This document shows positions 5,113-55,723 of a stretch of DNA of 64,000 bases, piece by piece. The position numbers and the translations under genes are program-made. Positions within the stretch are counted from its first letter, which is position 1. Each line of letters starts with the position of its first letter. The stretch is from Alphaproteobacteria bacterium (GTDB lineage: Bacteria; Pseudomonadota; Alphaproteobacteria; UBA2966), in assembly GCA_964291395.2 (NCBI GenBank), contig OZ219858.1, positions 512,001-576,000 of the forward strand, in the 5' to 3' direction. The notes beneath the pieces were generated by a model. It worked only from the letters and a program-made list of their open reading frames with translations, was not told the origin of the DNA and did not search any database.

Positions 5113-5115
5113 CGC

Positions 5116-24299: not shown

Positions 24300-24338
24300 C
24301 GAACAAGCGGTACTGAACGACCGGAGGAGACAAGATCC

Positions 24339-25274
24339 ATGTGCGGCATAGCTGGTCTCATTCATCGCGGCACGACCGCAGACATCGGCACCGAAGTGAC
24401 GAACATGCTGCAGTCGTTGAAGCATCGCGGCCCCGATTCCACGGGCTTTGCGATTTACGGCCAACCGGTCGCCGACGAATACGTCATGCGCTTCAAGGTC
24501 GCCGAACAGGAGGACATGGCGACCGGATTCCGGATTCACGACGAGATCAAGGAGCGGCGGGCGATCGTGGATTCCCGTTTCGATGAAAAGGGCGCGGTCA
24601 TGCTGTCGCAGGAGGATGCCACGGAGTACGCCTACCGCTACCGCTTCACGTTCGACGGCGATCTCGAACAGTTGGCCCGTTACATCGAGGATGTGGAGGG
24701 GGCGGAGATCCTCTCCCTTGGCAGTGGCCTGGAATTGATCAAGGATCTCGGCGACGCAACGGCCGTGTCCGGCCAATACGGACTGAAAGGCTTTCAGGGC
24801 ACGCACGCGATCGGGCATACGCGCATGGCGACGGAGTCGGACGTCGACATCCGCTCGGCCCACCCCTACTGGGCGTATCCGTATAACGACATCTCCGTGG
24901 TCCATAACGGCCAGATCACCAACTACTGGATCATGCGCCGCGAGATGGAGCGGCGCGGACACCGTTTCATGTCCAACTGCGATTCCGAATTGCTGGCGGT
25001 CTACACCGCGGACAAACTGAACAACGGATACACCCTGGAGGAATCGCTCGCCCAATCGATCGAGGAAGTCGACGGCGTGTTCACCTACGTCGTCGCCACG
25101 GCCGACTGTCTGGGGATGGCCAAGGATACCATGGCGGCCAAGCCCATGGTGCTCTATGAGAGCGAGGACACGGTGGCGCTCGCTTCTGAGGAAGTCGCAA
25201 TCCGCGCACTCATCCCGGAGGAGATCGAGACCTACGACCCGTATGACGAGGAGGTGCGGGTATGGCAGGCCTAA
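24339..25274 (+). CDS. Class II (Ntn) glutamine amidotransferase, GlxB/MgsA-like
   Basis: N-terminal MCGIAG, HRGPDSTG, GHTRMATES, AHPY, HNGQITNY, DSE. Confidence 0.9.
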   Translation: MCGIAGLIHRGTTADIGTEVTNMLQSLKHRGPDSTGFAIYGQPVADEYVMRFKVAEQEDMATGFRIHDEIKERRAIVDSRFDEKGAVMLSQEDATEYAYRYRFTFDGDLEQLARYIEDVEGAEILSLGSGLELIKDLGDATAVSGQYGLKGFQGTHAIGHTRMATESDVDIRSAHPYWAYPYNDISVVHNGQITNYWIMRREMERRGHRFMSNCDSELLAVYTADKLNNGYTLEESLAQSIEEVDGVFTYVVATADCLGMAKDTMAAKPMVLYESEDTVALASEEVAIRALIPEEIETYDPYDEEVRVWQA

Positions 25275-26110
25275 GCGATCAGGACGACGCGTCCTATGAG
25301 ATGGGGATGCACACCGAGCAGCTCGCCGGACGCACTCAAGAGGTCTTCTTCTCGCCCCAGGAGGGGGAGAACTTCGTCTACCCGAACTCCTTCGACGTCG
25401 ACTTCGACAAACGCGCCGAGTTCGACGCCGCCGGGCTGGAGATCGCCGAAATCAACCTCAAAATCCGCGAGCTCATGGAGTCCGGACACGGCACCATCGT
25501 GGTCAGGAACCCGGGCGCCCGGCACTCCATTGGCGTCGGCATTCTCAACCGTCTCAATCTGATCATCGATGGCAGTCTGGGATACTTCGGCGTCGGCCTC
25601 ATCGATGGACCCAACGTGCGTATCAGCGGTCGCGTCGGCTGGTCCTGCGCCGAGAACATGATGGCTGGGACCGTGGTGGTCGAAAAGAACGGGGGCTCGA
25701 CCTTCGGTGCCGCGCTGCGGGGCGGGGACCTCGTCTGCCGCGGCGCCGTGGGCTCGCGTACCGGCATAGACATGAAGGGAGGCACCATCATCGTCGGTGG
25801 CGACACGGGTGCCTACTCCGGATTCATGATGCAAAGGGGCCGCATGGTGGTTTGCGGCAACGCCGGCAAGAACCTGGGCGACTCCATGTACGACGGCACC
25901 ATCTTCGTGGGTGGCGAGATCCGGAGCCTCGGCGTCGATGCGGTTCCGGGCGAAATGACGGACCTGGATCGGGCTTGGCTCGAACGAAAGCTCGCCATGT
26001 ACGATCTGCTGCCATCGCGGGGGGTCGGCCACTTCCAGAAGATCGTCGCCGGCAAGCAGCTATGGAACTATGACAATCTCGAACCCACCGAAAAGAAGAT
26101 CGTCCTCTGA
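25262..26110 (+). CDS. GXGXG beta-helix protein, GlxC/MgsB-like, with acidic N-terminal extension
   Basis: NPGARHSIGVG, repeated G-x-x-G turns, ENMMAGT, GIDMKGG, LGDSMYDGTIFVGG. Confidence 0.88.
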   Translation: MAGLSDQDDASYEMGMHTEQLAGRTQEVFFSPQEGENFVYPNSFDVDFDKRAEFDAAGLEIAEINLKIRELMESGHGTIVVRNPGARHSIGVGILNRLNLIIDGSLGYFGVGLIDGPNVRISGRVGWSCAENMMAGTVVVEKNGGSTFGAALRGGDLVCRGAVGSRTGIDMKGGTIIVGGDTGAYSGFMMQRGRMVVCGNAGKNLGDSMYDGTIFVGGEIRSLGVDAVPGEMTDLDRAWLERKLAMYDLLPSRGVGHFQKIVAGKQLWNYDNLEPTEKKIVL

Positions 26111-26123
26111 GAGGGAACGAACG

Positions 26124-27506
26124 ATGTCAGATTCACAACCCCTCGCCCCCATGCCGAATGGCGGTTCACGGAAGCCGTCCCGTAGCAAAGACGTGCTGGG
26201 GCGTAGTCGGATCTTCACGCGCGAGGTCATCGACGACATCCACATCAAGGCGGAGCTCGGACGCTACCGGATGCGCGGGTTCTCCTTGTTCAAGAAGATT
26301 CCGCACTGGGACGATCTGACGTTCCTTCCGGGCACGCTGACGCGCTTCGTCATCGAGGGTTACCGCGAGAAGTGCCTGACCGAGACGGTCATCGGCCCGC
26401 GGGCGAAAAAGCCGATCGTGCTGGACATTCCCGTCTACATCACGGGCATGAGCTTCGGCGCGCTTTCCTACGAGGCCAAGACCGCGCTGGCACGCGGGGC
26501 GACGATGGCGGGCACGGCGACGTGCTCCGGCGAGGGCGGCATGATCCCCGATGAGCGCCGCTATTCGACCAAATGGTTCTACCAGTGCATTCAGTCGCGC
26601 TATGGCTTCAACCCACACCACCTGAGGCTGGCGGACGGCTGCGAGTTCTTCATCGGCCAGGGCTGCAAGGTCGGGCTCGGGGGCCACCTGATGGGCCAGA
26701 AGGTCACCGACCAGGTGGCGGAGATGCGTTCGCTCCCCGCGGGTATCGACCAGCGCTCGCCCGCCCGCCATCCGGACTGGCTGGGGCCCGACGACTTGGC
26801 GCTGAAGATCCAGGAGGTCCGGGAAGCTACCGACGGCCAGATTCCCATCCAGCTCAAGCTCGGCGCGGCGCGCGTCTACGACGACGTGCGCATGGCGGTC
26901 AAAACCGACCCCGACAGCATCTACATCGACGGCATGGAAGGGAGCACCGGCGCCGGGCCGCACCTGGCGACGGAAGACACCGGTGTGCCGGGCATGGCCG
27001 CGATCCGCCAGGCGCGTCGGGCGATCGACGATCTCGGCAAGCGCGGCGAGATCACCCTGATCTATGCCGGCGGCATCCGCAATGGCGGCGATATCGCCAA
27101 GGCGCTGGCGCTCGGGGCCGACGCCATCGCCATCGGTCATTCGGCGATGATGGCCCTCAACTGCAACAAGGACATTCCGGAAGCGGACTTCGAGTCCGAG
27201 ATCGGGGTCGAGGCAGGGCACTGCTATCACTGCCATACGGGCCGCTGTCCGGTCGGGGTGGCGACCCAGGATCCCGTCCTGCGTCGGCGTCTCGATCCCG
27301 ACGCGGCAGCGGAGCGCGTCTACAACTTCCTTCACACGCTCGCCATCGAGTGCCAGATGATGGCGCGGGCCTGCGGCAAGACCAATGTCCACAGCCTGGA
27401 GCCCGAAGATCTGGCGGCGCTGACCATGGAGGCCTCCGCCATGGCCGGTGTGCCGTTGGCGGGGACCGAGTACACGGTAGGCGTGGACGATTACCACCAC
27501 CTTTAG
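26124..27506 (+). CDS. FMN-binding glutamate synthase-family protein, GlxD/MgsC-like
   Basis: GMSFGALS, SGEGG, GQGCKVGLGGHLMGQKV, SPARHPD, DGMEGSTGAG, GGIRNGGD, CYHCHTGRCPVGVATQ. Confidence 0.92.
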   Translation: MSDSQPLAPMPNGGSRKPSRSKDVLGRSRIFTREVIDDIHIKAELGRYRMRGFSLFKKIPHWDDLTFLPGTLTRFVIEGYREKCLTETVIGPRAKKPIVLDIPVYITGMSFGALSYEAKTALARGATMAGTATCSGEGGMIPDERRYSTKWFYQCIQSRYGFNPHHLRLADGCEFFIGQGCKVGLGGHLMGQKVTDQVAEMRSLPAGIDQRSPARHPDWLGPDDLALKIQEVREATDGQIPIQLKLGAARVYDDVRMAVKTDPDSIYIDGMEGSTGAGPHLATEDTGVPGMAAIRQARRAIDDLGKRGEITLIYAGGIRNGGDIAKALALGADAIAIGHSAMMALNCNKDIPEADFESEIGVEAGHCYHCHTGRCPVGVATQDPVLRRRLDPDAAAERVYNFLHTLAIECQMMARACGKTNVHSLEPEDLAALTMEASAMAGVPLAGTEYTVGVDDYHHL

Positions 27507-27521
27507 GGAGGGTACGGATCA

Positions 27522-27932
27522 ATGGCCGGAGGCACCTACAAGGGCTCCGAACTCGGTCATGTCGATCACTTCATCGACGGCGACGGCCTCGACTCGGAAC
27601 GTGAAATCGAGATCGGTCAGCACATCGGCTACCGTTATGACGTCAATCTTCTGCCGGACTACGACCGCCTGACCCCCTTTCTCACGACCTACATCGAGAC
27701 GATGGGTTGGCACGACCTCAACTGGCTTGAAGACGTGCACATGGGCTACGAAGAAGGCCGCCCGGCGGTATTCGACCGCAACATCAACGGCTGGGTCACC
27801 ATCCCGGAAGACACCGAACTGCCAGACAACCAGCAGGATCGCGACATGCTGGCGCGCGAGCTGTTGATCAAGTTTCAGATGTCCAAGCGTCACCCTTTGG
27901 TGGAGTTGAACAAGGCGTACCGGAAATTCTGA
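27522..27932 (+). CDS. Acidic protein of unknown function in the System I operon
   Basis: GGAGG RBS, 15 bp after glxD, host-like codon usage, natural globular composition. Confidence 0.75.
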   Translation: MAGGTYKGSELGHVDHFIDGDGLDSEREIEIGQHIGYRYDVNLLPDYDRLTPFLTTYIETMGWHDLNWLEDVHMGYEEGRPAVFDRNINGWVTIPEDTELPDNQQDRDMLARELLIKFQMSKRHPLVELNKAYRKF

Positions 27933-27971
27933 CCGATCTCGCGCCGTCCATCCGGAGCGGCGGAACGGACC

Positions 27972-28589
27972 TTGACGGAGAGATCCTTGGAGCCATCGCG
28001 TTCAAACGGGGATCAGGTCATCCGGCTCGACAGCGCCAACCGGCAGCTCGCCCTGGCCTTTCTAGGTTGGCAGTGTCGGCTGCGCCAGATCGCCTTCCGC
28101 CAGGACGGCGGTCGACCCAGCGATGGCATGTCTCCAAAGGTTTTTGTGGGCGATGACTGTCGGGCCGCAGGTCGGATCGTCTCAATCCTCAACAAGGCCG
28201 AATCCGACTCCGCGCTCATGGAATTTCAGCATTTCTACCGCCGCACGCGCGATCCCGCCCAGCGCCGAGCCGACGTCACTCGGTTTTTGTCGGAAACCTA
28301 TTTCCAAAGGCCGCAGACCTTCACGGACCGACTGACCACGGTGTTCCCACCCGGGTCCCGGGTGGCCGAATTGCTCGAGTCCGCCGAATCCTGCCGGCTC
28401 GTGTTTGAGCACTTCAATCAGCGTTATGACCTGACGTGCGAAGCGATACGGCTTCGGGAAGACGATCCCCTGTATCGGTCGACGTTCTGGCACAACGCGC
28501 TGTTCAATCCGGATTTGTCAAAGGATTGCAGGATCCTGGCGCTTGTTCCCAATTGGTCGCGTTGCGCTGCGGATCCGGCACCCGCATGA
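27972..28589 (+). CDS. Hypothetical protein
   Basis: 205-aa ORF co-oriented with the operon; aromatic-rich globular composition (WQCRLRQ...GRPS.GM, WHNALFNP). Confidence 0.6.
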   Translation: MTERSLEPSRSNGDQVIRLDSANRQLALAFLGWQCRLRQIAFRQDGGRPSDGMSPKVFVGDDCRAAGRIVSILNKAESDSALMEFQHFYRRTRDPAQRRADVTRFLSETYFQRPQTFTDRLTTVFPPGSRVAELLESAESCRLVFEHFNQRYDLTCEAIRLREDDPLYRSTFWHNALFNPDLSKDCRILALVPNWSRCAADPAPA

Positions 28590-28782
28590 GAGTCGGGTTC
28601 AGAGGTTTGCTGGAACAAATACTTGTTTCGGAAAGCAGAATCGGTGAACATACCGGTTAATGCTGATACGAGACTTGGCGATCGTGGCAGAACTCTCATT
28701 TTGATCTTGAACACCGAACCGGCCGTGTGAACGGGGTGCACGGCGGTTGGTGATTTTATTTACACCCCGCGGAGAAACCTCC

Positions 28783-30153
28783 ATGGATACGGATGTTGCT
28801 GCAATAACAACAGTATTCACTGAATTTTATTACTGGATAACTGTTGCGCTGATGTTCCTGATCCACGTTGGCTTCTGCATGTACGAAGTGGGGGCAAGCA
28901 GGCGCAGGAACCACATGCACACCCTGATGAAGAATTCCATGCTGATCCCGTTGGTCACGGTGACGTGGTTCTTCTTCGGCTGGTGGATTTACTGGGCATT
29001 CGCCGGCGGGCCGGGCATCACGGGCCCGCTCGGCCACCCCGACCCGTCCATTGCGGCGGCCTACACGCCGTGGGGCGAAAGCATGGGTCCACGGCTCGAC
29101 GACCGCATCAGCGGCGTCTTCTGGGCGGCATTCCTGCTGTTCGCCTGGACGGCCGCGTCCATCGTCTCGGGTGCCGTGATCGAACGTATCCGGTCCTTCG
29201 CGTTCTGGATCTTCGCCATCCTGATCGGATCCGTCACCTGGTCGATCGACGCCGCCTGGGGCTGGCACTTCAACGGCTGGATGGTCGAGCTCCTCGGGTA
29301 CCATGACGCGTACGCGTCCGGCGTGATCCACGGGATCGCCGGCGGGACGGCCTTGGGCGTGCTCGTCGTTCTCGGGCCGCGCCTCGGCAAGTTCGCCGCG
29401 GACGGCACGCCGCGCGACATCCTGCCCCACAACCCCTGGCTGGTCTGCATCGGGTTGTTCCTGATCTACACGGGCTTCTGGGGGTTCTACGTCGCCTGCA
29501 ACGTGCCGGTGGCGACGACCGCCTACATCGACGGCCAGCTCACCGGCGCGACCCAGACAGCGACCACCATTTATCTCACGCCGACGACGCTCGGCGCCAT
29601 CACGGTGAACTTCCTGATGTCGTTGGCCGGCGGGATGTTGGTCGGTTACATGGTGTCGAAGGGCGACGCCTTCTGGACCTACTCGGGCGGCCTCGCCGGC
29701 ATCATCACGTCGTCGGCGGGCAACGATCTCTACCATCCGATCCAGGCGCTGATCATTGCCGGCATCGGCACCTTCCTCATGTACAAGCTCCATTATTGGG
29801 TCGAACGGAGGTTCAAGGTCGACGACGCGGTCGGCGCCGTGGCGGTCCACGGCTACGCCGGCTTCATCGGCCTGGTGATCGCGGGCTTCGTGCTCTGGGG
29901 TCACCCCTCGTCACCCTACGAGGGCTTCGCCGCGATCAATCCACTCGGCCAGTTCGTCGGCGCGGTCATCATGTTCGGGGTGCTCGGCTTCGCACCGGGC
30001 TGGATCGTCGCCAAGATCCTCCACTCGCAAGGGATGCTTCGCATTCCGCGTGAGATCGAGGTGCTCGGTCTCGACTTCCACAGCAACAAGGAAGCCGAGG
30101 CCGCGCGCGCGGACGTGGTGGCCGGGGTTCGCTCCGAGTCCGCGGGCGCCTGA
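28783..30153 (+). CDS. Ammonium transporter (Amt) family protein with atypical pore residues
   Basis: About 11 hydrophobic segments; SIVSGAVIER, D......H (HDAYASGVIH), LGPRLGKF, PHN, DDAVGAVAVHG. Confidence 0.92.
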   Translation: MDTDVAAITTVFTEFYYWITVALMFLIHVGFCMYEVGASRRRNHMHTLMKNSMLIPLVTVTWFFFGWWIYWAFAGGPGITGPLGHPDPSIAAAYTPWGESMGPRLDDRISGVFWAAFLLFAWTAASIVSGAVIERIRSFAFWIFAILIGSVTWSIDAAWGWHFNGWMVELLGYHDAYASGVIHGIAGGTALGVLVVLGPRLGKFAADGTPRDILPHNPWLVCIGLFLIYTGFWGFYVACNVPVATTAYIDGQLTGATQTATTIYLTPTTLGAITVNFLMSLAGGMLVGYMVSKGDAFWTYSGGLAGIITSSAGNDLYHPIQALIIAGIGTFLMYKLHYWVERRFKVDDAVGAVAVHGYAGFIGLVIAGFVLWGHPSSPYEGFAAINPLGQFVGAVIMFGVLGFAPGWIVAKILHSQGMLRIPREIEVLGLDFHSNKEAEAARADVVAGVRSESAGA

Positions 30154-31032: not shown

Positions 31033-31335
31033 CGGTACAGACTCCTTCCAGGTTCTCGCTGCATCCGCGGAAAGCCGAAACGGGACTCGTTCCGCCGGGC
31101 CCGTCGGACATCCGGCGGGCCGCGTCGTGACCTCCATGACGGTTGGGGAATCGATTGTCAAACCGCGGGCAAACGGCGAATGCGGGGTCCGACGCAGACG
31201 ATTCCCGCCGCAGGCTTCGTCGTATTCCGGACTTCCCGGGTGGCTGGACAAGGTCGTGTGCAGCCATCATCGTTGCGAGTGGTTTATACGTGATGCGCCG
31301 CGAGAATTCTTGTCGGCGCGAGGCAAAGCGGGCCG

Positions 31336-31968
31336 ATGATGACAGAGGCTGAGCGCCTGGACTATCAGCACCCTCACGAGACCGAGGTCGACGACAGCAG
31401 TCTCGAGGTGTCGATCGGCGGGGAGGTGCGGGAATTCCGCAAGAAGCTCGACATGACGGTGGCGGAGCTCGCCAAGGCGTCCGGACTGTCGGCGGGTATG
31501 CTGTCCAAGATCGAGAACGGCATGACGTCGCCCTCCCTGGCCACGCTACGGGCTCTGTCGCGGGCCCTGCACGTTCCCGTCACGGCGTTCTTCCGGAAGT
31601 TCGAGGAGGAATTGGACGCCACCTACGTACGGGCGGGACAGGGTCTGGCCATCGAGCGGCGAGGGACCCGCGCCGGCCATCAATATCAGCTTCTGGGCCA
31701 CAGCGTAGGCAAGAGCGTGGCCGTCGAGCCGTACCTGATCAGCCTGACGGAAGAGTCGGACGTCTTCCCTCTGTTCCAGCATGCGGGGCAGGAGTTCATC
31801 TACATGCTGGAAGGCGAACTGAACTACCGGCACGGGGACAAGACCTACGCATTGCTCCCCGGTGATTCGCTGTTTTTTGACGCGAATGCGCCCCACGGAC
31901 CGGAAGAGCTGCGCAAACTGCCGATTCGCTTTCTCTCCGTCATCGCGTACTCCAGGGACTCGGAGTGA
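31336..31968 (+). CDS. XRE-family HTH regulator with cupin sensor domain
   Basis: IGGEVREFRK...LSAGMLSKIENGMTSPSL HTH; cupin FQHAGQEFIYMLEG, GDSLFFDANAPHGP. Confidence 0.92.
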   Translation: MMTEAERLDYQHPHETEVDDSSLEVSIGGEVREFRKKLDMTVAELAKASGLSAGMLSKIENGMTSPSLATLRALSRALHVPVTAFFRKFEEELDATYVRAGQGLAIERRGTRAGHQYQLLGHSVGKSVAVEPYLISLTEESDVFPLFQHAGQEFIYMLEGELNYRHGDKTYALLPGDSLFFDANAPHGPEELRKLPIRFLSVIAYSRDSE

Positions 31969-31976
31969 AGGAAATT

Positions 31977-32007
31977 TCATGAGAGGAAACTTTTTTTCCT
32001 CTCATGA
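31977..32007. promoter_or_regulatory. 13-bp perfect inverted repeat; probable XRE operator (or terminator)
   Basis: TCATGAGAGGAAA-CTTTT-TTTCCTCTCATGA, AT-rich, between the XRE gene and the System II operon. Confidence 0.55.
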
Positions 32008-32085
32008 CTTGATTCTATCGATCCCGTTTCATACTCTTCGCTGTGCCCCACGCGGGCTCGAAAACGACTGCACGCGAGGTGTGCG

Positions 32086-32994
32086 ATGTGCGGAATCGCT
32101 GGCGTCCTCTTCAAGAATCCCGGACTCAACGCGAAGCTCGGCGAGACCCTGATCGAAATGCTCGATGGGTGTCAGCACCGCGGACCCGATTCGACGGGAT
32201 TCGCGCTGTACGGCGGCGACTCGGACGCCTCGGAGTTCGTCTTGCGGTTCCATGTCGGCACGGGGGACGAAGGTTCCGAGAACGTGGATCGCGTGGTACG
32301 GGCGCTGAAGGAGTTCGAAGCCCAAATCATCGCCGGCGAGCACGTCGGCAGCACCTACCGGGTAACGGTGCGCTACGAAGGCGACGTCCAGAAATTCGCC
32401 TACGCCATGGAGCATGCGGCGAAGCTGTTCTCCATCGGTAGCACCCTCGACATCGTCAAGGACATCGGCGGCGCCCACGACGTCGACGAGGTTTACGACG
32501 TCCAATCGGTGGACGGCAGCCACGGCCTCGGGCACGTGCGTCTCGCCACGGAGTCCGACGTCAAGCCGGAAGCGGCGCACCCGTTCTGGGCCACCGGCTT
32601 CTCCGATGTGGCGATCGTCCACAACGGTCAGATCACCAACTACTGGAAGATGCGCCGGTTGTTGGAACAGCGCGACTACGAGTTCCATACAGACAACGAT
32701 TCCGAGCTCATCGCGGTCTACCTTGCCGACAAGCTCAAGCACGGAGATACCCTGAAGCAGGCCCTTGAGACCTCGATCGACGACCTCGACGGCACGTTCT
32801 CGTTTCTCGTGTCGACCAAGGACGAGATGGGCTACGCCAAAGACCGTCTCGCCGCCAAACCGATGGTGCTCTACGAAAACCACGATCTCATCGCCATCGC
32901 CTCGGAAGAGGTCTCTCTCAACCGCCTGTTTCCGGGTCAGGCCCTCGATACGACCGAACCGCCGCCTGGGACCTGCGCGACATGGTCACGGTAG
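32086..32994 (+). CDS. Class II glutamine amidotransferase, GlxB/MgsA-like (second copy)
   Basis: MCGIAG, HRGPDSTG, GHVRLATES, AHPF, HNGQITNY, DNDSE. Confidence 0.9.
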   Translation: MCGIAGVLFKNPGLNAKLGETLIEMLDGCQHRGPDSTGFALYGGDSDASEFVLRFHVGTGDEGSENVDRVVRALKEFEAQIIAGEHVGSTYRVTVRYEGDVQKFAYAMEHAAKLFSIGSTLDIVKDIGGAHDVDEVYDVQSVDGSHGLGHVRLATESDVKPEAAHPFWATGFSDVAIVHNGQITNYWKMRRLLEQRDYEFHTDNDSELIAVYLADKLKHGDTLKQALETSIDDLDGTFSFLVSTKDEMGYAKDRLAAKPMVLYENHDLIAIASEEVSLNRLFPGQALDTTEPPPGTCATWSR

Positions 32995-34967
32995 ACCTGA
33001 GCGAGCTGCCGGTCCGCGAAGCCAATGACCTGATCCGGAAGGCGGGCGCGGACGGCGAGGACGTCGAAGTCCTCAACCCGGATGCGCGGCACCACATCGG
33101 GGTCGGTTTGGCCCATCCCATCACGGTGCGCATTCGAGGATCGGCCGGCTATTTCTGCGCCGGTCTGACCGACGGACCGCGCTTCGAGGTCGAGAGCAAC
33201 GTCGGCTGGGGCCTCGCCGACAACATGTACCAGGGTTCCGTGGTCGTCGGCGGCAATGCCAGCGCCATTCCCGCCGTCGCCATCCGCGGCGCCGAGGTCG
33301 TGGTCAAGGGGAACATGGGTTCGCGCGCCGGCCAGGTCATGAAGGAGGGCACGCTGCTCTGCGGCAAGAACGCAAACTTCATGGCCGGCTACATGATGTA
33401 CGGCGGGCGTATCGTGATTCTCGGCGATTCCGGTGAGCGCGTGGGCGAAGACATGACCGGCGGCGAGATCTTCGTCGGCGGCAAGATCCAGTCGCTGGGT
33501 GCCGCGGCCATGCAGACCGACATGGAGAGCGCCGAGGACGACGAACTGCGCGCGCTTCTCGACAGGTACGAAATCCCTTTCGAGGGGACCTTCAGCAAGA
33601 TCGTCAACGAAGGCGGCAATCTGCGCTATGGCAACCCGGAGCCGCGGCGCCGGGCCATCCCGTTCTTCACCTTCTCGGGTAAGTCGAGCTACTGGAACGA
33701 GAAGGTCCAGGAGGACATCTACATCAAATCCAAGATCGGTCGTTACCGCATCCGGGGTTATGGCGGTGCGCGGGCGTTGCCGCATCTCAACGACATAGCG
33801 TTCAAGAAGGACCTGAGCGCCGCCGGCAGCGAGACAGACGCCGTCAGCAAGGTCAACCTGCACACCGAAGTCGGCGGGCGCCACGGGGCCAAACCGCTGA
33901 GACTTTCCATGCCGGTGATGATCTCGCCGATGAGCTATGGAGCGCTGAGCAAGTCGACCAAGCTTGCCATGGCCAAGGCCGCGGCCATGGTCGGAATCTC
34001 GGAGAATACCGGCGAAGGCGGGATGATGGACGAGCAGCGCGAAGCCGCCGATCAGCTCATCTTCCAGATGCTGTCGGGGCGCTTGGGTTGGAACGTCCAC
34101 GACATGCAGCGGGCCGATGGTCTTGAGATCTATATCAGCCAAGGCGCCAAGCCCGGGTTCGGCGGCCAGCTTATGGCGGCCAAGGTCACCGAGGAGATCG
34201 CGCGGATCCGTGGCATTCCCCACGGCATCGACCTGCGCTCGCCGTCACGCCACCCGGACATTCTCGGTGCCGACGATCTGGTCATCAAGATCGAGGAGAT
34301 GCGCGAAGCCACGGGCTATCGCATCCCGGTCGCCGTCAAGCTCGGTGCCGGACGCGTGCGCGACGACATCAAGATTGCCGTGAAGGACGGCTTCGATTTC
34401 ATCGAGCTCGACGGCATGCAAGGCTCCACCGGAGCGGCCGGCAATGAGGTGCTCGATTATTGCGGCATCCCGACCATCTCCGCCATCCAGGAGGCCGAGG
34501 AGGCGCTCGCGGACATCGGCCGCCGTCAAGACGTCGACATCGTGCTCATGGGCGGCATCAAGGACGGAATCGATACCGTGAAGGCCTTGGCGTTGGGGGC
34601 CGACGCCATCGGCATGGGAACCTCGGCGATCATCGCCGCGGGCTGTATCGCCTGTATGCAGTGCCACGTCGGTTCCTGCGTCGTCGGGATCGCCACGCAG
34701 GACCCCGAACACGAGAAGCGCTACAACGTGGATATCGAGGCACGGAATGCGGCGCGGTTCCTTGAGAGCGTCCGCTGGCAGATCGCGGCGCTGACCCGTG
34801 CGCTCGGTTACGACGATATCCGCCAGCTCAATCGTGAGGACCTGGTGGCGCTGACGCCCGAGGCGGCGGCCATAACCAAGCTTCCCTACGCGCCGGAGTA
34901 CCGCTCCGGCGAACACCAGATTCAGGAGACCGTGGGCATTCAACGCTCCGGGTCACAGCTCCAGTGA
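32982..34967 (+). CDS. GlxC-GlxD fusion (GXGXG domain plus FMN glutamate-synthase domain)
   Basis: N-terminal NPDARHHIGVG and GXGXG repeats; C-terminal MSYGALS, TGEGG, SQGAKPGFGGQL, SPSRHPD, CIACMQCHVGSC. Confidence 0.9.
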   Translation: MVTVDLSELPVREANDLIRKAGADGEDVEVLNPDARHHIGVGLAHPITVRIRGSAGYFCAGLTDGPRFEVESNVGWGLADNMYQGSVVVGGNASAIPAVAIRGAEVVVKGNMGSRAGQVMKEGTLLCGKNANFMAGYMMYGGRIVILGDSGERVGEDMTGGEIFVGGKIQSLGAAAMQTDMESAEDDELRALLDRYEIPFEGTFSKIVNEGGNLRYGNPEPRRRAIPFFTFSGKSSYWNEKVQEDIYIKSKIGRYRIRGYGGARALPHLNDIAFKKDLSAAGSETDAVSKVNLHTEVGGRHGAKPLRLSMPVMISPMSYGALSKSTKLAMAKAAAMVGISENTGEGGMMDEQREAADQLIFQMLSGRLGWNVHDMQRADGLEIYISQGAKPGFGGQLMAAKVTEEIARIRGIPHGIDLRSPSRHPDILGADDLVIKIEEMREATGYRIPVAVKLGAGRVRDDIKIAVKDGFDFIELDGMQGSTGAAGNEVLDYCGIPTISAIQEAEEALADIGRRQDVDIVLMGGIKDGIDTVKALALGADAIGMGTSAIIAAGCIACMQCHVGSCVVGIATQDPEHEKRYNVDIEARNAARFLESVRWQIAALTRALGYDDIRQLNREDLVALTPEAAAITKLPYAPEYRSGEHQIQETVGIQRSGSQLQ

Positions 34968-37498
34968 GTGTTCAAGGAACGCCGACGCGGGTGAACGTCG
35001 AGTACCCGCCCGAACTCCTCGACGACACCGACGACACCGACTTCGTGCCGGCGCCCTGTCAGGTGGCCTGCCCCATCGGCACGGATGCGCCGTCCTACAT
35101 CGCCTACATCTGGGAAGACAAGGTCGAAGAGGCCTTCGAGGCGATCACCGCCACCAATCCGTTCAGTTCCATCTGCGGCCGGGTTTGCGATGCCCCGTGC
35201 GAGCCGGCCTGCCGCCGCGCCGACTCCGACGGCCCCCTGGCGATCCGCAATCTCAAGCGCTTCGTCATGGATCAGCTCGGAAAGGATCACCATCTGCCTC
35301 CCGTCGAGGTCACGAAGGACAAGACGGTGGGCATCGTCGGTTCGGGGCCGGCGGGCATGACCGCCGCGCAGGACCTGGCCGAGGCGGGCTACGAAGTGCA
35401 CCTCTACGAGATGACCGACCGCCTCGGCGGCATGATGGTCTGGGGCATCCCGGCCTTCCGGCTTCCAGTGGGGATCATCCAGGAGGACATGGACCGAATC
35501 CTCAATCACTGCCCGGGCATCAAGGTGCACCTCAACACCGGGCTCGGACATGAGGTAACCCTCGAAGAGCTCAAGGAGCGGCACGAGGCGGTGTTGCTCT
35601 GCATCGGCTCCTGGTGGGGCAAGACCATGGGCGTGCCAGGCGATGAGGACCCGCGCGTCGTCGACGGCGTGTCCTTCCTGCGGCGCGTCAACGGCGGCGA
35701 ACGGCCCGAACTGCCCGAGACCGTCGTGGTCGTCGGTGGCGGTGACGTCGCCATGGATGCCTGCCGCGTGGCCAAGCGCCTGCCCGGCTGCAAGCACGTC
35801 AAGGTCGTCTATCGTCGGGGGCCGGAGCAGATTCCCGCCCGCAAGGACGAACTCCATGGCGCCATCAAGGAGGGCGTCGAGTTCGTCTACAACACGCAGC
35901 AGGTCGCCGTGGTGAAGAGCGGCAACGAGATCGCGCTACGTTGCGTCATCACCAAGATGGGGGAGCCGGAAGAGGACGGCCGCCGAAGGGCCATCCCGGT
36001 TGAAGGGACGGAGCACGACATTCCCTGCGGCATGGTGATCTCCGCGGTCGGCCAGAAGGCGGAGAGCGACCACCTCGATCAGCTCGGTTTCATGGACTGG
36101 GACCGTATCCACGCCGACTTCGACTCGATGCGTACGGCGGACCCCAACGTTTTCGCCGCCGGAGACGGTGCCTTCGGGGGCTCGACCATCGTGATCGCCA
36201 TGAACCATGGCCATCGCGCGGCCTACTACGTGAAGGCCTATCTGGAAGGGAACGAGGTTCCTGCGTCCTACCGTACCCCCTACCGGACGCGCCGCGTGCC
36301 CGTCGCCCAGGACTCCAATTGGGAGCTTTTCCCGCGCCGGGAGCAGGAGTTCCACGGCCTCGGGGCGAACCCGGTGGCGTTTCCGGAGATCGAGTCGCGC
36401 TACGACGCGCAGACGGCGCGCGACGAGGCGGCGCGCTGCTACCGCTGCGATGCGGAGAACGGATCGGCCGACTACACGGTGTGGAACCGGGAGGATATCT
36501 TCGCCATGGCGCGCATGGCGCCGTCCGACGAGGCCAAGCAGCAGGCCATGCTGTTCAAGCGGATGCAGAACCGCGAGAATCCGTTTCCGGAGGATCGCCC
36601 GCCGACGATCGACGATCTGGTTTTCCTGTCGGCCAACCTCTCGCGCCTCGTGATCGATCCCTACCGCGATTCCTGTGTCACGGAAACCGGCATGATGGGC
36701 GGGTCCCTGGTGATGAAGTACCCCATGATGGTAACCGGCTTCGACGATGTGCCCGACGAGGTCCGCGAGGGACTGGCCGCAGGCATAACGGAACCCAATG
36801 TCGCCTACGTGGGCTTCCGCCGCCTGCACCGGAACGTGCCCTGGCTGCAGCTCGTCGTGCCGGGCGAGAGCGAGCCGGACCCGGACGCCATCGGCGTCGT
36901 CTACGTGACCGGAGAAACCTTCCGTCCCGTGCCGCCGGAACGAGCGAACGAGGGACAGGCCTTGGGCCTGGTGGTCCGCGGGTCCAACGTCGACGAGGCG
37001 GTGCCTTTCGCCCTCGACAGCGGTTTCGATCTTCTGGTCGTGGATTCGACGATCGGAATCGAGACCGCATGGCCGGAGCTTGAAGGCGCTCCCGATCTGT
37101 CGGCGGCACGCGACACGGTACGCAAGCTGCGCGCGCTGAAGCGCGAAGGCGACATCGAGATCGCCTACTTCGGCGGCATCCGGTCGGGGACCGACCTCGC
37201 CAAGCTGCTCGGCCTCGGCAGCCACGCCGGCATCGTCGGCGTCTCGATGGGCCTCGCGCTTGGCGGCGAGATCGTGCCGTCGGGCAATCGTCAGGCCATC
37301 GTTTTCCCGCCCGACCTGACGCACGAGGATCTGAGCACTGGCGCCGCCAACTATCTCAAGGCGTCCAACAGCGAGTGCTCGATGATGGCGCGCTGCGCCG
37401 GCAAGACGAACGTCCACAACATCGAGCCTGAAGATCTGCGCTCCATCACTATCGCGACCGCGGAAGCCACCGGCATTCTGCTTGCCGGCACGCAGTAG
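34964..37498 (+). CDS. GltD-like Fe-S/FAD/NAD(P)H oxidoreductase fused to a degenerate GlxD-like domain
   Basis: PCQVACP, CGRVCDAPCEPAC, VGSGPAG, VGGGDVAMD, YRRG, FAAGDG, EAARCYRC. C-terminal part carries DDLVFL..LSRLVIDPYR, GGIRSGTD and ARCAGKTNVHNIEPEDL. Confidence 0.88.
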   Translation: MSVQGTPTRVNVEYPPELLDDTDDTDFVPAPCQVACPIGTDAPSYIAYIWEDKVEEAFEAITATNPFSSICGRVCDAPCEPACRRADSDGPLAIRNLKRFVMDQLGKDHHLPPVEVTKDKTVGIVGSGPAGMTAAQDLAEAGYEVHLYEMTDRLGGMMVWGIPAFRLPVGIIQEDMDRILNHCPGIKVHLNTGLGHEVTLEELKERHEAVLLCIGSWWGKTMGVPGDEDPRVVDGVSFLRRVNGGERPELPETVVVVGGGDVAMDACRVAKRLPGCKHVKVVYRRGPEQIPARKDELHGAIKEGVEFVYNTQQVAVVKSGNEIALRCVITKMGEPEEDGRRRAIPVEGTEHDIPCGMVISAVGQKAESDHLDQLGFMDWDRIHADFDSMRTADPNVFAAGDGAFGGSTIVIAMNHGHRAAYYVKAYLEGNEVPASYRTPYRTRRVPVAQDSNWELFPRREQEFHGLGANPVAFPEIESRYDAQTARDEAARCYRCDAENGSADYTVWNREDIFAMARMAPSDEAKQQAMLFKRMQNRENPFPEDRPPTIDDLVFLSANLSRLVIDPYRDSCVTETGMMGGSLVMKYPMMVTGFDDVPDEVREGLAAGITEPNVAYVGFRRLHRNVPWLQLVVPGESEPDPDAIGVVYVTGETFRPVPPERANEGQALGLVVRGSNVDEAVPFALDSGFDLLVVDSTIGIETAWPELEGAPDLSAARDTVRKLRALKREGDIEIAYFGGIRSGTDLAKLLGLGSHAGIVGVSMGLALGGEIVPSGNRQAIVFPPDLTHEDLSTGAANYLKASNSECSMMARCAGKTNVHNIEPEDLRSITIATAEATGILLAGTQ

Positions 37499-37610
37499 GC
37501 AGTCGTCGCATTCGAGTCCGATGTAGACCCACCTCTATTTTCCTGCCGTGGCGAAGTTCCTAAACTGCGGCACATCACGAGACAGCGAAAACATCAGGGA
37601 GGGAGTTGAT

Positions 37611-38930
37611 ATGGCTGTCGATCTGGCCAAGGTCGCGAAAGACCGGAAGATCAAATATTTCCTCGTCAGTTTTGTCGATCTGTTTGGCGGCTTGCGGGCG
37701 AAGCTGGTGCCCGCCCGTGCGATCGGGGACATGCAGAAGGAAGGTGCCGGCTTCGCCGGCTTCGCGGCTTGGCTCGACATGACGCCCGCCGATCCGGACA
37801 TGTTCGGCGTGCCCGATCCCGACAGCCTCATTCAGCTTCCCTGGAAGAAGGACGTCGCGTGGGTCGCGGCCGACCTCTGGATGAATGGCAAGGAGGTCGA
37901 GGCCTCGCCCCGCATCATCTTGAAGCGCCAGATCGAGAAGGCCGCCAAGAAAGGCTACCGCCTCAAAACCGGCGTCGAATGCGAATACTTCCTGGTCATG
38001 CCGGATGGTACGGCGATCTCCGATCCCTTCGATACTCAGGAGAAACCTTGTTACGACCAGCAGGCCCTGATGCGGCGCTACGACGTCATCAGCGAGATCT
38101 GCGATGCGATGAACGAACTGGGCTGGGGGCCCTACCAGAACGACCACGAGGACGCGAATGGCCAGTTCGAGATGAACTGGGACTATTCGGACTGCCTGAC
38201 AACGGCGGACCGGCATGCGTTCTTCAAGTTCATGGTCAAATCCGTCGCCGAGAAGCATGGCCTGCGGGCGACGTTCATGCCGAAGCCCTTTGTCAGCCTG
38301 ACGGGCAATGGCTGCCACTGCCACGCATCGCTTTGGGACAAGGCAGGCCGCAAGAACCTTTTCCTCGACAACAAGGACGAGATGGGGCTGTCGAAGCTCG
38401 CCTACAACTTCCTCGGCGGAGTTCTCAATTCGGCGGGTCCCCTGTGTGCCTTTTTCAATCCGACGGTGAACTCCTACAAGCGCATCAACGCACCCGCCAC
38501 GTTGTCGGGCGCCAGCTGGTCGCCGAACTCGGTGACCTACGGCGGGAACAACCGGACCCACATGGTTCGAATTCCGGATGCCGGCCGCTTCGAATTCCGC
38601 CTCATGGATGGGTCGGCCAACCCGTATCTGCTCCAGGCCGGCCTGCTGGCCACGGGTCTCGACGGCATTCAGAACAAGCGGGATCCGGGCAAGCGGCTCG
38701 ACGTCAACATGTACGAGTACAGGCGGGCCTCGGAGCTTCGCCGCCTGCGTATACGGAAGCTGCCGCTGAACCTCCTCGACGCCCTGCGTCTGCTCGACAA
38801 GAGCAAGATCATCCGTGCCGGGATCGGCGACGAGTCGGTCGACAGCTACGTCAAGCTGCGGATGAACGACTGGCTGAGCTACGCCGGCCACCTTACCGAC
38901 TGGGAGCGCGAGCACACGCTCGACTGCTGA
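37611..38930 (+). CDS. gmaS: Type III glutamate-ammonia ligase / gamma-glutamylmethylamide synthetase
   Basis: IKYFLVSFVDLFGGLRAKLVP...GAGFAGFAAWLDMTPADPD, KPCYDQQALMRRY, YQNDHEDANGQFEMNW, SGASWSP, GNNRTH: typical GlnT/GmaS. Confidence 0.85.
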   Translation: MAVDLAKVAKDRKIKYFLVSFVDLFGGLRAKLVPARAIGDMQKEGAGFAGFAAWLDMTPADPDMFGVPDPDSLIQLPWKKDVAWVAADLWMNGKEVEASPRIILKRQIEKAAKKGYRLKTGVECEYFLVMPDGTAISDPFDTQEKPCYDQQALMRRYDVISEICDAMNELGWGPYQNDHEDANGQFEMNWDYSDCLTTADRHAFFKFMVKSVAEKHGLRATFMPKPFVSLTGNGCHCHASLWDKAGRKNLFLDNKDEMGLSKLAYNFLGGVLNSAGPLCAFFNPTVNSYKRINAPATLSGASWSPNSVTYGGNNRTHMVRIPDAGRFEFRLMDGSANPYLLQAGLLATGLDGIQNKRDPGKRLDVNMYEYRRASELRRLRIRKLPLNLLDALRLLDKSKIIRAGIGDESVDSYVKLRMNDWLSYAGHLTDWEREHTLDC

Positions 38931-38944
38931 ACCGCCGAGCTCCG

Positions 38945-38974
38945 ACACGGAGAGCGGCCGGCCGTTCTCCGTGT
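38945..38974. terminator. Stem-loop between convergent gmaS and zur
   Basis: ACACGGAGAGCGGC-CG-GCCGTTCTCCGTGT: 14-bp stem with one G-T pair; no clear U tract. Confidence 0.45.
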
Positions 38975-39077
38975 TCGGCGATTTCGCTCGCCCGCGTCGA
39001 GTGCCGCCTGGCCATTACGCCGGACGCTCCCGCCGTGCACCTCGATCAACCGTTCGGGTGGGGTTTCATGACGCGTG

Positions 39078-40812: not shown

Positions 40813-40896
40813 TGTGGATGGATCGACGTTCCTGCGTTTTGTGCGGTTGGGCCGTGAATCAGGTATAAGGACGGGTTTCGGAGGGCCGAAAACGTA

Positions 40897-41985: not shown

Positions 41986-42100
41986 ACTCGTTCGGGAGAG
42001 GTCGGCGGCGCTCGAAACCGATTCAACCTGTTGATATGGGGTTGGATGATACTATTGAGTTGGAAGTATTCATGATTCCAACTCAACAGAATGCGCGCCA

Positions 42101-43621: not shown

Positions 43622-43706
43622 GCAAGCTGAAGAAATTCGGGCGAACCTCTCCCGAGAAAGAGGTCCGCCCCAAGCATCGACCTGGAAATGCCGTCGTTCG
43701 ACGCAC

Positions 43707-44786: not shown

Positions 44787-44964
44787 GATGTTGTCTCCTT
44801 GCGAGACGAATGAATTGGAAAGACCGCCGCCCCTTCCGGCCGGCCGGCCAAATCTCACCACGCTGTTAACTGACCAATCGACAATCGATGCGCCGACCTT
44901 CAAATTCCCGGCTGGTAGAGTCGCCGCCTGTGTCCGTTGACGCGCCTTCTTCCGATTACTTCGA

Positions 44965-54859: not shown

Positions 54860-54862
54860 GAC

Positions 54863-55720: not shown

Positions 55721-55723
55721 ACG

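What the first reader, a model, noticed from the sequence alone, without database searches (positions are those of the whole stretch)
31336..38930. System II: GmaS next to a split glutamate synthase with its own NAD(P)H module; candidate reductive 'methylamine GS-GOGAT'
Seen: XRE-cupin regulator, Ntn amidotransferase (Cys2 intact), GXGXG-FMN fusion, GltD-like flavo-Fe-S protein and a typical GmaS/GlnT. The three middle genes overlap one another. Established: described N-methylglutamate (NMG) synthase (MgsABC/GlxBCD) has three subunits and no GltD, and how gamma-glutamylmethylamide (GMA) becomes NMG is not well resolved. True GOGAT uses the same GATase, FMN and GXGXG domains plus GltD. Inference: this operon rebuilds a complete GOGAT architecture that hydrolyses GMA, channels methylamine to 2-oxoglutarate and reduces the imine with NAD(P)H to give NMG plus Glu.
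Basis: partly seen in the sequence, partly recalled or inferred. Interest (0 to 1): 0.82.

Follow-up and report, generated by a model that had tools for sequence, protein, structure and literature searches.

The report
Methylglutamate-synthase-like enzyme with built-in reductase
Next to a methylamine-activating enzyme sits an uncharacterised relative of N-methylglutamate synthase that carries its own NAD(P)H-type electron-input subunit, which could show how bacteria turn methylamine into glutamate.

Summary
They are an XRE-cupin regulator, a GlxB-type Ntn amidotransferase, a GXGXG+FMN fusion, a GltD-like protein and a type III glutamine-synthetase homologue. The synthetase keeps every residue that the RhGmaS crystal-structure paper names as GmaS-specific.

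The three-gene core is a conserved, unnamed family, found in 17 of 400 sampled Alphaproteobacteria and in many metagenome clusters. Its gene order (regulator, A, B, C, gmaS) matches the canonical mgsABC-gmaS operon. A type III synthetase is present in 15 of 17 core-bearing genomes against 48 of 383 others. In those 15 genomes it never lies beside a canonical mgsC. In three genomes the core is the only MgsABC-like set, and in two of these it also lies beside SoxB/SoxA-like genes and gmaS.

Canonical GltB co-exists in 17 of 18 genomes, so this is not the housekeeping GOGAT.

The best reading is an NAD(P)H-coupled, GOGAT-like N-methylglutamate synthase variant. The chemistry is inferred, not shown. 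The GOGAT-like model was already proposed in print with an unknown electron donor, so this is a new variant of a known kind.

The parts
31336..31968 (+). XRE-family HTH plus cupin transcriptional regulator (PuuR-like)
   Evidence: HTH_3 E 1.1e-15 and Cupin_2 E 2.2e-13. PuuR model hit is below its cut-off. Homologues at 50-76% identity lie upstream both of System II cores and of canonical glxBCD-glnT operons.
31977..32007 (.). Perfect 13-bp inverted repeat, 9 nt after the regulator's stop codon (hairpin or operator)
   Evidence: Kept in 4 of 7 same-genus-level loci examined (L004, L005, L017, L018), degraded in L001 and L002, absent in L003 and in more distant loci.
32086..32994 (+). GlxB/MgsA-type class-II (Ntn) amidotransferase with catalytic Cys at position 2
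   Evidence: The N-terminus is M/V-C-G-I-A in 73 of 73 homologous loci whose match starts at residue 1. It is 36% identical to GlxB of a canonical plasmid operon.
32982..34967 (+). Fusion of a GXGXG beta-helix domain (MgsB/GlxC-like) and an FMN-binding glutamate-synthase domain (MgsC/GlxD-like) with a four-Cys motif
   Evidence: C-x2-C-x2-C-x4-C is present in 93 of 93 homologues, with the spacing of the GltB C-x5-C-x4-C motif. GAKPG[F/L]GG is present in 93 of 93, where the genome's own GltB has E.
34964..37498 (+). 844-aa two-part protein: GltD-like Fe-S/FAD/NAD(P)H module (residues 30-500, 35051-36463), a linker, and a degenerate FMN-type TIM barrel (residues about 570-820, 36671-37423)
   Evidence: C-terminal model pLDDT is 89.4. 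Best folds are FMN-dependent alpha-hydroxy-acid oxidase barrels, E 6.5e-11. The C-terminal part is 31-32% identical to the C-halves of GlxD-type FMN subunits. The six-Cys N-terminal pattern is present in 97 of 97 homologues and Y-R-R after the second Rossmann motif in 91 of 97.
37548..38930 (+). Gamma-glutamylmethylamide synthetase (GmaS / GlnT, type III GS family); likely true start 37611
   Evidence: TIGR03105 at 661.7 bits, above its cut-off. E 2.8e-191 to the solved RhGmaS chain 7cql. Asp177, Glu186, Arg312, Trp300, Ala48' and Lys30' are all conserved.
22818..30153 (+). It holds a divergent GS-like protein, GlxB-, GlxC- and GlxD-type subunits, two small unknown ORFs and an Amt-family transporter.
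   Evidence: Its FMN subunit is 80-90% identical in 34 of 400 sampled Alphaproteobacteria.

Best explanation
The genes at 32086-37498 encode one multi-subunit flavo-iron-sulfur enzyme. It is a paralogue and functional counterpart of N-methylglutamate synthase (MgsABC) with its own electron-input subunit.

Proposed mechanism (inferred):
1. GmaS (37611-38930) makes gamma-glutamylmethylamide (GMA) from glutamate, methylamine and ATP.
2. The Cys-2 amidotransferase hydrolyses GMA to glutamate plus methylamine.
3. The methylamine reaches the FMN site of the GXGXG-FMN protein and condenses with 2-oxoglutarate.
4. The N-methyl imine is reduced by FMNH2.
5. FMNH2 is regenerated by electrons passing NAD(P)H, then FAD, then the Fe-S clusters of the GltD-like module, then the four-Cys cluster of the FMN domain.

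The net reaction would be GMA + 2-oxoglutarate + NAD(P)H giving glutamate + N-methylglutamate.

The C-terminal pseudo-FMN barrel of the GltD-like protein docks onto the FMN domain and tethers the reductase. A SoxBDAG-type enzyme encoded elsewhere would then release methylene-tetrahydrofolate and a second glutamate. Methylamine nitrogen would thus enter glutamate without free ammonia.

What is shown: the domain content, the conserved motifs, the GmaS signature residues, the operon position and the genome co-occurrence. What is inferred: the substrates, the direction of electron flow and the product.
For: Enzyme unity:
- The three genes are contiguous in 83 of 85 loci. The other two loci have under 160 nt of upstream sequence.
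- One library representative of 1486 aa fuses GXGXG+FMN+Fer4_20+Pyr_redox_2+C-terminal barrel. Another of 1031 aa fuses GXGXG+FMN directly to the barrel.
- The complex model of the barrel with the GXGXG-FMN protein scored 0.77 (median of 3 runs) against a best control of 0.00. That mark was reached by 58 of 80 solved complexes and 2 of 110 mismatched pairs. The runs agree in at least 82% of contacts and the partner pLDDT is at least 88. My own alignments were used, so the calibration counts hold only roughly.

Link to GMA:
- The adjacent synthetase carries all GmaS-specific residues named in PMC7948447.
- The gene order regulator-A-B-C-gmaS is the same as in canonical glxBCD-glnT operons.
- In the same sample of 400 Alphaproteobacteria, TIGR03105 is present in 15 of 17 core-bearing genomes against 48 of 383 without the core. 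Fisher p is 2e-11, uncorrected for kinship; the 17 fall in 10 families.
- GS3 lies within 3 kb of a canonical GlxD in 36 of 44 core-less genomes and in 0 of 15 core-bearing ones. It lies next to the core in 6 of 15.
- G595, G561 and G696 have no other GlxD-type gene. G595 and G696 cluster the core with SoxB/SoxA-like genes and gmaS.
- FolD and SoxB/SoxA-like genes lie beside the core in several metagenome loci.

Not the housekeeping GOGAT:
- Glu_syn_central (canonical GltB) is present in 17 of 18 core-bearing genomes.
- The synthase-loop residue that is E in this genome's GltB is F or L in 93 of 93 homologues, as it is G/L/M/T in GlxD-type proteins.
- The FMN domain is sister to the GlxD clades, with support 97/96.

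Literature:
- A GOGAT-like reductive NMGS with an unknown redox cofactor has been proposed (PMC6237917 passages).
Against: - There is no biochemical or genetic datum for any member of the family.
- gmaS is not adjacent in 34 of 56 dereplicated metagenome loci with at least 1400 nt downstream, nor in 9 of 15 genomes.
- One same-genus relative (L003) has no gmaS within 9 kb downstream.
- Five core-bearing genomes also hold a canonical b-type GlxD and 12 hold the System I type, so another NMGS candidate exists there.
- The SoxB/SoxA-like genes beside the core are only 44% and 34-35% identical to those beside Methylobacterium-type canonical operons. Their identity as NMG dehydrogenase is therefore unproven.
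- In this genome the best SoxB-like match (70%) lies about 540 kb away, at a contig end.
- Fe-S cysteines do not set the core apart, because 12 of 17 canonical GlxD proteins examined also have four Cys.
- Sequence cannot tell the direction of electron flow or the pyridine nucleotide used.
Confidence: 0.55

Rival explanations
1. It is a true glutamine-dependent NAD(P)H glutamate synthase of split, archaeal-like build. It would be a second GOGAT isozyme that pairs with GlnT acting as a glutamine synthetase.
For: All catalytic modules of GOGAT except the central domain are present. The four-Cys motif has GltB-like spacing without the 17-residue insert of GlxD types. Many loci are stand-alone operons with unrelated neighbours, as expected of a general nitrogen enzyme. 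Co-occurrence with a GS-family gene fits a GS-GOGAT pair equally well.
Against: The partner synthetase lacks the ammonium-binding Asp and the Glu-flap Glu of true GS and has the GmaS residues instead. Canonical GltB co-exists in 17 of 18 genomes. The FMN domain groups with GlxD/MgsC types and shares their replacement of the GltB loop Glu. SoxB/SoxA-like and FolD genes, which are C1 handling genes, lie beside it in several loci.
Confidence: 0.15
2. The enzyme has the same build and chemistry but acts on another gamma-glutamyl-alkylamide, such as the ethylamine (theanine) or another small primary amine adduct. It would give the matching N-alkylglutamate.
For: GmaS enzymes accept ethylamine (abstract of PMC7677707, seen in the listing). 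The genome holds three paralogous GlxBCD-like sets, which suggests division of labour among amines. The Sox-like genes beside the core differ from the Methylobacterium-type mgd genes.
Against: The methylamine-site and catalytic residues of RhGmaS are all kept. The SoxA-like neighbour has a GcvT-type folate domain and FolD is linked in L032/L033, which points to a one-carbon unit.
Confidence: 0.12
3. The enzyme performs the redox-neutral NMG synthase reaction (glutamate + methylamine giving NMG + ammonia). The GltD-like module would serve only to re-reduce or regulate the flavin, or it would run in reverse as an NAD(P)+-linked oxidation.
For: The classical enzyme is described as redox-neutral (Pollock and Hersh, as cited in PMC6237917). 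The Methylobacterium-type MgsC lacks Fe-S cysteines yet works.
Against: A full, strictly conserved NAD(P)H/FAD/Fe-S module, with 97 of 97 homologues keeping the Cys pattern, is costly for a repair role. It is fused to the catalytic chain in one representative.
Confidence: 0.1

Closest known systems
N-methylglutamate synthase MgsABC / GlxBCD (EC 2.1.1.21) of Methylobacterium extorquens, Methyloversatilis universalis and SAR11
   Same: It has a GlxB-type amidotransferase, a GXGXG domain and an FMN glutamate-synthase domain. It has the same operon position between an XRE-cupin regulator and gmaS. It shares the replacement of the GltB loop Glu.
   Different: The B and C parts are fused. There is a fourth, GltD-like reductase module plus a pseudo-FMN barrel. 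Identity to a canonical set is only 35-41%. It forms a separate clade. The Fe-S motif has no 17-residue insert.
Bacterial NADPH-glutamate synthase GltBD
   Same: It has an FMN domain with C-x5-C-x4-C spacing, a GXGXG domain, and a small-subunit-like Fer4_20/FAD/NAD(P)H module.
   Different: It has no GATase_2 domain and no Glu_syn_central domain. The GltD models score below their cut-offs (194-256 bits against 447-483 bits). The domains are split over three genes in a different order. It has an extra barrel. It co-exists with true GltBD.
Archaeal-type split glutamate synthase (separate GATase, GXGXG and FMN parts, with a ferredoxin-like insert)
   Same: It has a GlxB-type amidotransferase and split domains. 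One such representative (P0252, GXGXG + 4Fe-4S dicluster + FMN) is a weak hit of the barrel profile.
   Different: Electrons would enter through a GltD-like NAD(P)H module rather than a dicluster ferredoxin domain. Its placement relative to archaeal sequences was not tested by a tree here.
Dihydropyrimidine dehydrogenase and NfnB-type GltD-like modules
   Same: The N-terminal 30-500 residues match these chains at E 1e-32 to 1e-91. As in DPD, a GltD-like module is followed in the same chain by an FMN-type barrel.
   Different: The barrel here derives from a glutamate-synthase FMN domain and has lost the catalytic loops. The working FMN site is on another polypeptide.

Membership tests
N-methylglutamate synthase (MgsABC/GlxBCD) | GlxB-type Ntn amidotransferase, GXGXG and FMN glutamate-synthase parts encoded together | tested here: met
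   The B and C parts are fused into one 661-aa protein.
N-methylglutamate synthase (MgsABC/GlxBCD) | Operon linkage to gmaS, with order mgsA-B-C-gmaS | tested here: met
   Met in the window. Adjacent in 20 of 56 metagenome loci and in 6 of 15 genomes. The order equals that of canonical operons.
N-methylglutamate synthase (MgsABC/GlxBCD) | Three subunits only, with no dedicated reductase subunit | tested here: not met
   A GltD-like 844-aa protein is always encoded directly downstream.
N-methylglutamate synthase (MgsABC/GlxBCD) | Orthology to characterised MgsC | tested here: not met
   It is 41% identical to a Methylobacterium-plasmid GlxD, whereas the System I subunit is 52% identical. It forms a separate clade, sister to the b-type and System I types.
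N-methylglutamate synthase (MgsABC/GlxBCD) | Forms N-methylglutamate from methylamine or GMA | not testable with these tools
   This needs an enzyme assay.
NADPH-glutamate synthase (GltBD) | GltB-type GATase_2 amidotransferase and Glu_syn_central domain | tested here: not met
   There is no PF00310 or PF04898 hit in any of the three proteins at E up to 0.001. The extra barrel hits only FMN_dh and Glu_synthase weakly.
NADPH-glutamate synthase (GltBD) | FMN domain with the Cys motif of the 3Fe-4S cluster | tested here: met
   C-x5-C-x4-C spacing with one extra Cys, in 93 of 93 homologues. Which cluster type it binds is not known.
NADPH-glutamate synthase (GltBD) | Small subunit that meets the GltD family models | tested here: not met
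   TIGR01317 scores 194 bits against a cut-off of 447.7 and TIGR01318 scores 256 bits against 482.95.
NADPH-glutamate synthase (GltBD) | Glu in the G-A-K-P-G-E-G-G synthase loop (its role is recalled from memory, not tested) | tested here: not met
   F or L in 93 of 93 homologues. The genome's own GltB copies have E.
Gamma-glutamylmethylamide synthetase (GmaS) | Catalytic Asp177, Glu186 and Arg312; Trp300 in place of the Glu-flap Glu; Ala48' in place of Asp50' (RhGmaS numbering, PMC7948447) | tested here: met
   Residue-by-residue reading of the alignment to chain 7cql_A, whose numbering is offset by 20.
Gamma-glutamylmethylamide synthetase (GmaS) | Scores above the TIGR03105 cut-off | tested here: met
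   661.7 bits against 469.6 bits.

The most novel reading that the evidence does not exclude
This family is the self-sufficient form of N-methylglutamate synthase. Its GltD-plus-pseudo-FMN subunit would be the long-missing electron-input module. That would show that NMG synthesis from GMA is a reductive, GOGAT-like amidotransfer to 2-oxoglutarate. Bacteria that carry it would run a 'methylamine GS-GOGAT' that moves methylamine nitrogen into glutamate without releasing ammonia. The pseudo-FMN barrel would be a new docking device. It replaces the GltB central domain and can also occur fused to the catalytic chain without the reductase.
Probability: 0.4. Interest if true: 0.8.

Novelty: new variant of a known kind. 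Interest (0 to 1): 0.72.

Why it matters
Methylamine is a widespread marine nitrogen and carbon source, and gmaS is used as its marker gene (abstract of PMC7948447). Yet the step from GMA to N-methylglutamate is biochemically unresolved. Passages of PMC6237917 state that the redox cofactor of NMG synthase is unknown and list NADH, NADPH or ferredoxin as candidates.

An NMGS-like enzyme that encodes its own NAD(P)H module is a self-contained system. With it the reductive, GOGAT-like model can be tested in vitro with three genes. If the model is confirmed, it would change the nitrogen and ATP budget assumed for methylamine assimilation. It would also give gene markers for a second route, and add a compact NADPH-driven N-methylating enzyme for biocatalysis.

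Tried and rejected
- Fe-S cysteines as a discriminator. I first thought canonical MgsC lacks them, because the Methylobacterium-plasmid GlxD does. Among 17 canonical b-type proteins (16 fetched plus the Methylobacterium plasmid GlxD), 12 have four Cys, so I dropped the argument.
- Plasmid collection. The C-terminal barrel gave no match at E up to 1e-20.
- Phylum-wide sample. The single-sequence barrel query matched 0 of 400 other genomes at E up to 1e-30. This says only that the family is uncommon outside the groups later found.
- Riboswitch or other known RNA. There were three chance-level Rfam matches, all below gathering score, and none lay upstream of the operon.
- Sigma-70-like promoters. 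None were found in 30900-39300.
- The 13-bp palindrome at 31977-32007 is not conserved beyond close relatives, so it is not a family-wide operator.
- Conserved extra neighbours of stand-alone cores. None recur. The neighbours include LarA-like, acyl-CoA dehydrogenase and methylmalonyl-CoA mutase genes.
- RNA libraries. Contigs of four metatranscriptome runs from four studies (X1-X4) lie on all four structural genes, and records bridge both gene junctions. They are contigs, DNA carry-over was not excluded, and I could not lay a control stretch. The regulator bins had no cover. I therefore count this as no more than a hint of expression.
- The whole-protein fold (pLDDT 74) was too poor in the linkers for a fold search, so I folded the barrel alone.
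- Organism names for the homologues could not be obtained.
- Supplements of the papers were not opened. Gene tables there might list such a fourth gene.
- Literature searches found no paper describing a GltD-like subunit of NMG synthase. The library lacks most subscription journals.
Full report
**1. What is there.**

- 31336-31968 encodes an HTH_3 plus Cupin_2 regulator.
- 32086-32994 encodes a class-II amidotransferase that begins M-C-G-I-A.
- 32982-34967 encodes a fusion of a GXGXG domain (residues 35-171) and a glutamate-synthase FMN domain (303-610, E 5.7e-98).
- 34964-37498 encodes an 844-aa protein with Fer4_20 and Pyr_redox_2 domains.
- 37548-38930 encodes a protein that scores 661.7 bits on TIGR03105 (type III glutamate-ammonia ligase, cut-off 469.6).

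The middle genes overlap by 13 nt and 4 nt.

**2.

Only residues 30-500 of the 844-aa protein are GltD-like. It matches PDB chains of NfnB, DPD and GltD type at E 1e-32 to 1e-91, and the GltD family models score below their cut-offs.

The last 300 residues or so hit FMN_dh only weakly (E 3.6e-4). They are nonetheless 31-32% identical to the C-terminal halves of GlxD-type FMN subunits. Folded alone on a 30-row alignment, they give a confident beta/alpha barrel (pLDDT 89.4). Its best PDB neighbours are FMN-dependent alpha-hydroxy-acid oxidase barrels (E 6.5e-11, TM about 0.55).

Aligned with true FMN domains, this barrel lacks the G-A-K-P-G-x-G-G loop region and the Cys motif. It keeps a G-G-x-R-[ST]-G-T-D phosphate-binding-like motif in 97 of 97 homologues. 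I read it as a degenerate duplicate of the FMN domain. Whether it still binds a flavin is open.

**3. The synthetase is a GmaS.**

Its best solved relative is the Rhodovulum GmaS (7cql, E 2.8e-191). I read the printed alignment against the residues named in PMC7948447 (abstract and passages). The catalytic Asp177, Glu186 and Arg312 are conserved. So are Trp300, which replaces the Glu of the GS Glu-flap; Ala48', which replaces the ammonium-binding Asp50'; and Lys30'. Homologues align from residue 17-22 onward, so the start is probably Met22 at 37611.

**4. The family.**

The 844-aa architecture is common in public proteins. The 120 best clusters listed are 829-864 aa long, 63-90% identical and cover at least 97% of the query. 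They carry only generic names such as 'FAD-dependent oxidoreductase'.

| Collection searched | Result |
|---|---|
| Own genus | 5 of 5 other genomes |
| Rest of the order | 0 of 17 |
| Phylum-wide sample, single-sequence query | 0 of 400 |
| Plasmid collection | no match |
| Sampled Alphaproteobacteria, profile query | 17 of 400 (10 families, 15 genera) |

In 85 loci (5 MAG records and 80 metagenome contigs), the GXGXG-FMN gene lies directly upstream of the 844-aa gene in 83. The other two contigs have under 160 nt of upstream sequence.

Family-wide features are as follows.

- An M/V-C-G-I-A amidotransferase start in 73 of 73 loci.
- A C-x2-C-x2-C-x4-C motif in 93 of 93.
- G-A-K-P-G-[F/L]-G-G in 93 of 93.
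- The N-terminal six-Cys pattern of the GltD-like module in 97 of 97.
- Y-R-R after the second Rossmann motif in 91 of 97.

**5. One enzyme.**

A profile of the barrel run against 1.84 billion representatives found full-length forms of about 810-857 aa and many fragments. It also found a 1486-aa protein with GXGXG+FMN+Fer4_20+Pyr_redox_2+barrel in one chain. A further 1031-aa protein has GXGXG+FMN fused directly to the barrel with no GltD part.

A complex prediction of the barrel with the GXGXG-FMN protein scored 0.77 (median of three runs) against a best control of 0.00.

- That mark was reached by 58 of 80 solved complexes and 2 of 110 mismatched pairs.
- The runs share at least 82% of contacts, and the partner pLDDT is at least 88.
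- My own alignments were used, so the calibration holds only roughly.
- A resemblance to solved GltB structures cannot be excluded as the source of the pass.
- The near-invariant stretch at the start of the barrel (A2 invariant columns 11-28) lies in the predicted interface.

**6. Context and co-occurrence.**

Canonical operons fetched from a Methylobacterium plasmid and six genomes read (regulator)-glxB-glxC-glxD-glnT. An XRE-cupin regulator 50-65% identical to the window's lies beside three of them, divergently oriented in one. System II has the same order, with the B and C parts fused and the 844-aa gene inserted before gmaS.

I dereplicated the metagenome and MAG loci at 97% nucleotide identity, giving 75 groups. 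Of these, 56 have at least 1400 nt downstream.

- 20 have a GS3 at 60% identity or more directly downstream.
- 2 have a weaker GS.
- 34 have none.
- SoxB-like genes occur in 6 of 75 groups, Amt in 14 of 75 and the regulator in 17 of 75.

Neighbours that were annotated include SoxB- and SoxA-family proteins, the latter with a GcvT-type folate domain, and FolD.

The same 400-genome sample gave the following counts.

| Measure | Core-bearing genomes | Genomes without the core |
|---|---|---|
| TIGR03105 above cut-off | 15 of 17 | 48 of 383 |
| GS3 within 3 kb of a canonical b-type GlxD | 0 of 15 | 36 of 44 |
| GS3 next to the core | 6 of 15 | not applicable |

- The two core-bearing genomes without TIGR03105 are 79% and 91% complete.
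- Fisher p for the first row is 2e-11. It is not corrected for kinship.
- For the adjacency count I entered the 61 GS3 places of about 620 bits or more, covering 59 genomes. I left out four genomes with only lower-scoring hits and all second copies.
- Among the 44 core-less genomes, one more has a System I-type GlxD adjacent to GS3.
- In three of the nine core-bearing genomes where GS3 is not next to the core, GS3 sits beside SoxB/SoxA-like genes with no GlxBCD-like gene within 10 kb.

G595, G561 and G696 contain no GlxD-type gene other than the core's. G595 reads SoxB-SoxA-regulator-GAT-GXGXG/FMN-844aa-gmaS, and G696 is similar. Canonical GltB (Glu_syn_central) is present in 17 of 18 core-bearing genomes, G000 included. 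G000 itself has several copies.

**7. Relationship to known enzymes.**

A maximum-likelihood tree of 33 FMN-domain rows was built from 9 System II rows, 5 System I rows, 17 canonical b-type rows and 2 own GltB rows. All other loci were left out. System II forms its own clade (97/96), sister to System I plus b-type (97/99). GltB sits on a long branch, and the root is at the midpoint only.

The window's parts are 36%, 35% and 41% identical to GlxB, GlxC and GlxD of the Methylobacterium plasmid, and its GmaS is 65% identical.

The Fe-S motif of System II has GltB-like spacing. Most b-type and all System I proteins carry a 17-18 residue insert within the motif, and a Methylobacterium-like subgroup (5 of 17) has no Cys at all.

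**8. Interpretation.**

The simplest reading is that System II is the functional counterpart of MgsABC in a GmaS-dependent pathway, equipped with its own NAD(P)H/FAD/Fe-S input.

The literature I could read describes NMGS as three subunits (PMC3160333 and PMC5023230 passages). PMC6237917 (passages) reports the proposal, attributed there to Gruffaz et al. [quoted passage not shown] It also states that the redox cofactor is unknown.

The new element is an enzyme family that encodes the missing reductase. The reaction, the nucleotide and the direction of electron flow remain inferred.

The main weaknesses are these.

- There is no experimental datum.
- gmaS is often not adjacent.
- Other GlxBCD-like sets exist in many carriers.
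- The identity of the Sox-like neighbours is unproven. They are 44% and 34-35% identical to those beside Methylobacterium-type operons.

**9. Rivals.**

A glutamine-specific second GOGAT is disfavoured. The partner has GmaS residues, the FMN domain has GlxD affinity and loop substitutions, C1 genes lie nearby, and true GltBD co-exists. It is not excluded. A different small alkylamine, or a redox-neutral NMGS with an accessory reductase, also remains possible.

**10. Expression hint.**

Contigs from four RNA libraries of four studies (labelled sponge, coral and marine metagenomes by the tool) lie on all four structural genes with few differences. Records bridge both overlapping junctions. These are contigs, and DNA carry-over was not controlled, so this is only a hint.

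**11. Verdict.**

This is a new variant of a known kind of enzyme. It is of real interest because it makes the unresolved GMA-to-NMG step, and its electron donor, directly testable.

Noticed in passing
Its FMN subunit is unusually conserved, at 80-90% identity in 34 of 400 sampled Alphaproteobacteria. It occurs in 12 of 17 genomes that carry System II against 22 of 383 that do not.
   Followed up: partly
L158 (G451:C1:1197000-1216999): In a 1.4-Mb single-contig genome, about 15 kb (from about 4.8 to 19.7 kb of L158) holds an Amt gene, gmaS (71% identical), orf205- and orf136-like genes, a complete System I set including the divergent GS-like gene, and a canonical glxBCD set. System I therefore also looks tied to methylamine-type metabolism.
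   Followed up: no
L138-L153 and L095: Canonical b-type GlxD/MgsC proteins split into a majority with four Cys around a 17-residue insert (12 of 17) and a Methylobacterium-like subgroup with none (5 of 17). The two kinds may differ in how, or whether, they take up electrons.
   Followed up: partly
P0129 and P0133 (library representatives): There is a 1486-aa single-chain fusion of the GXGXG-FMN protein with the GltD-like protein plus barrel. There is also a 1031-aa form in which GXGXG-FMN is fused to the barrel with no GltD part. Gene-calling read-through was not excluded.
   Followed up: partly
window 31977-32007: A perfect 13-bp inverted repeat lies just after the regulator gene. In one relative (L018) the loop is inverted while the arms are kept.
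   Followed up: partly
G000 contigs C1 (about 500-5400 and 40700-45300) and C2 (about 53700-58300 and 87400-92300): The genome holds several gltB/gltD loci, and the C1 and C2 copies look like near-duplicates. One Glu_syn_central match on C1 is split into two pieces (3267-3926 and 3917-4111). The assembly is rated 9% contaminated, so some copies may be assembly duplicates or may come from another organism.
   Followed up: no
L003 (same-genus MAG record): This relative is 88% identical in the 844-aa protein and keeps the regulator and the three-gene core. It has no gmaS within 9 kb downstream, where three other ORFs of 458-558 aa follow instead.
   Followed up: no
G000:C3:3-4440: The best match to the SoxB/SoxA-like genes that accompany System II elsewhere (70% and about 54% identity) lies at the very start of contig C3. 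The SoxA-like match is broken into pieces, so it may be frameshifted or cut by the contig end.
   Followed up: no
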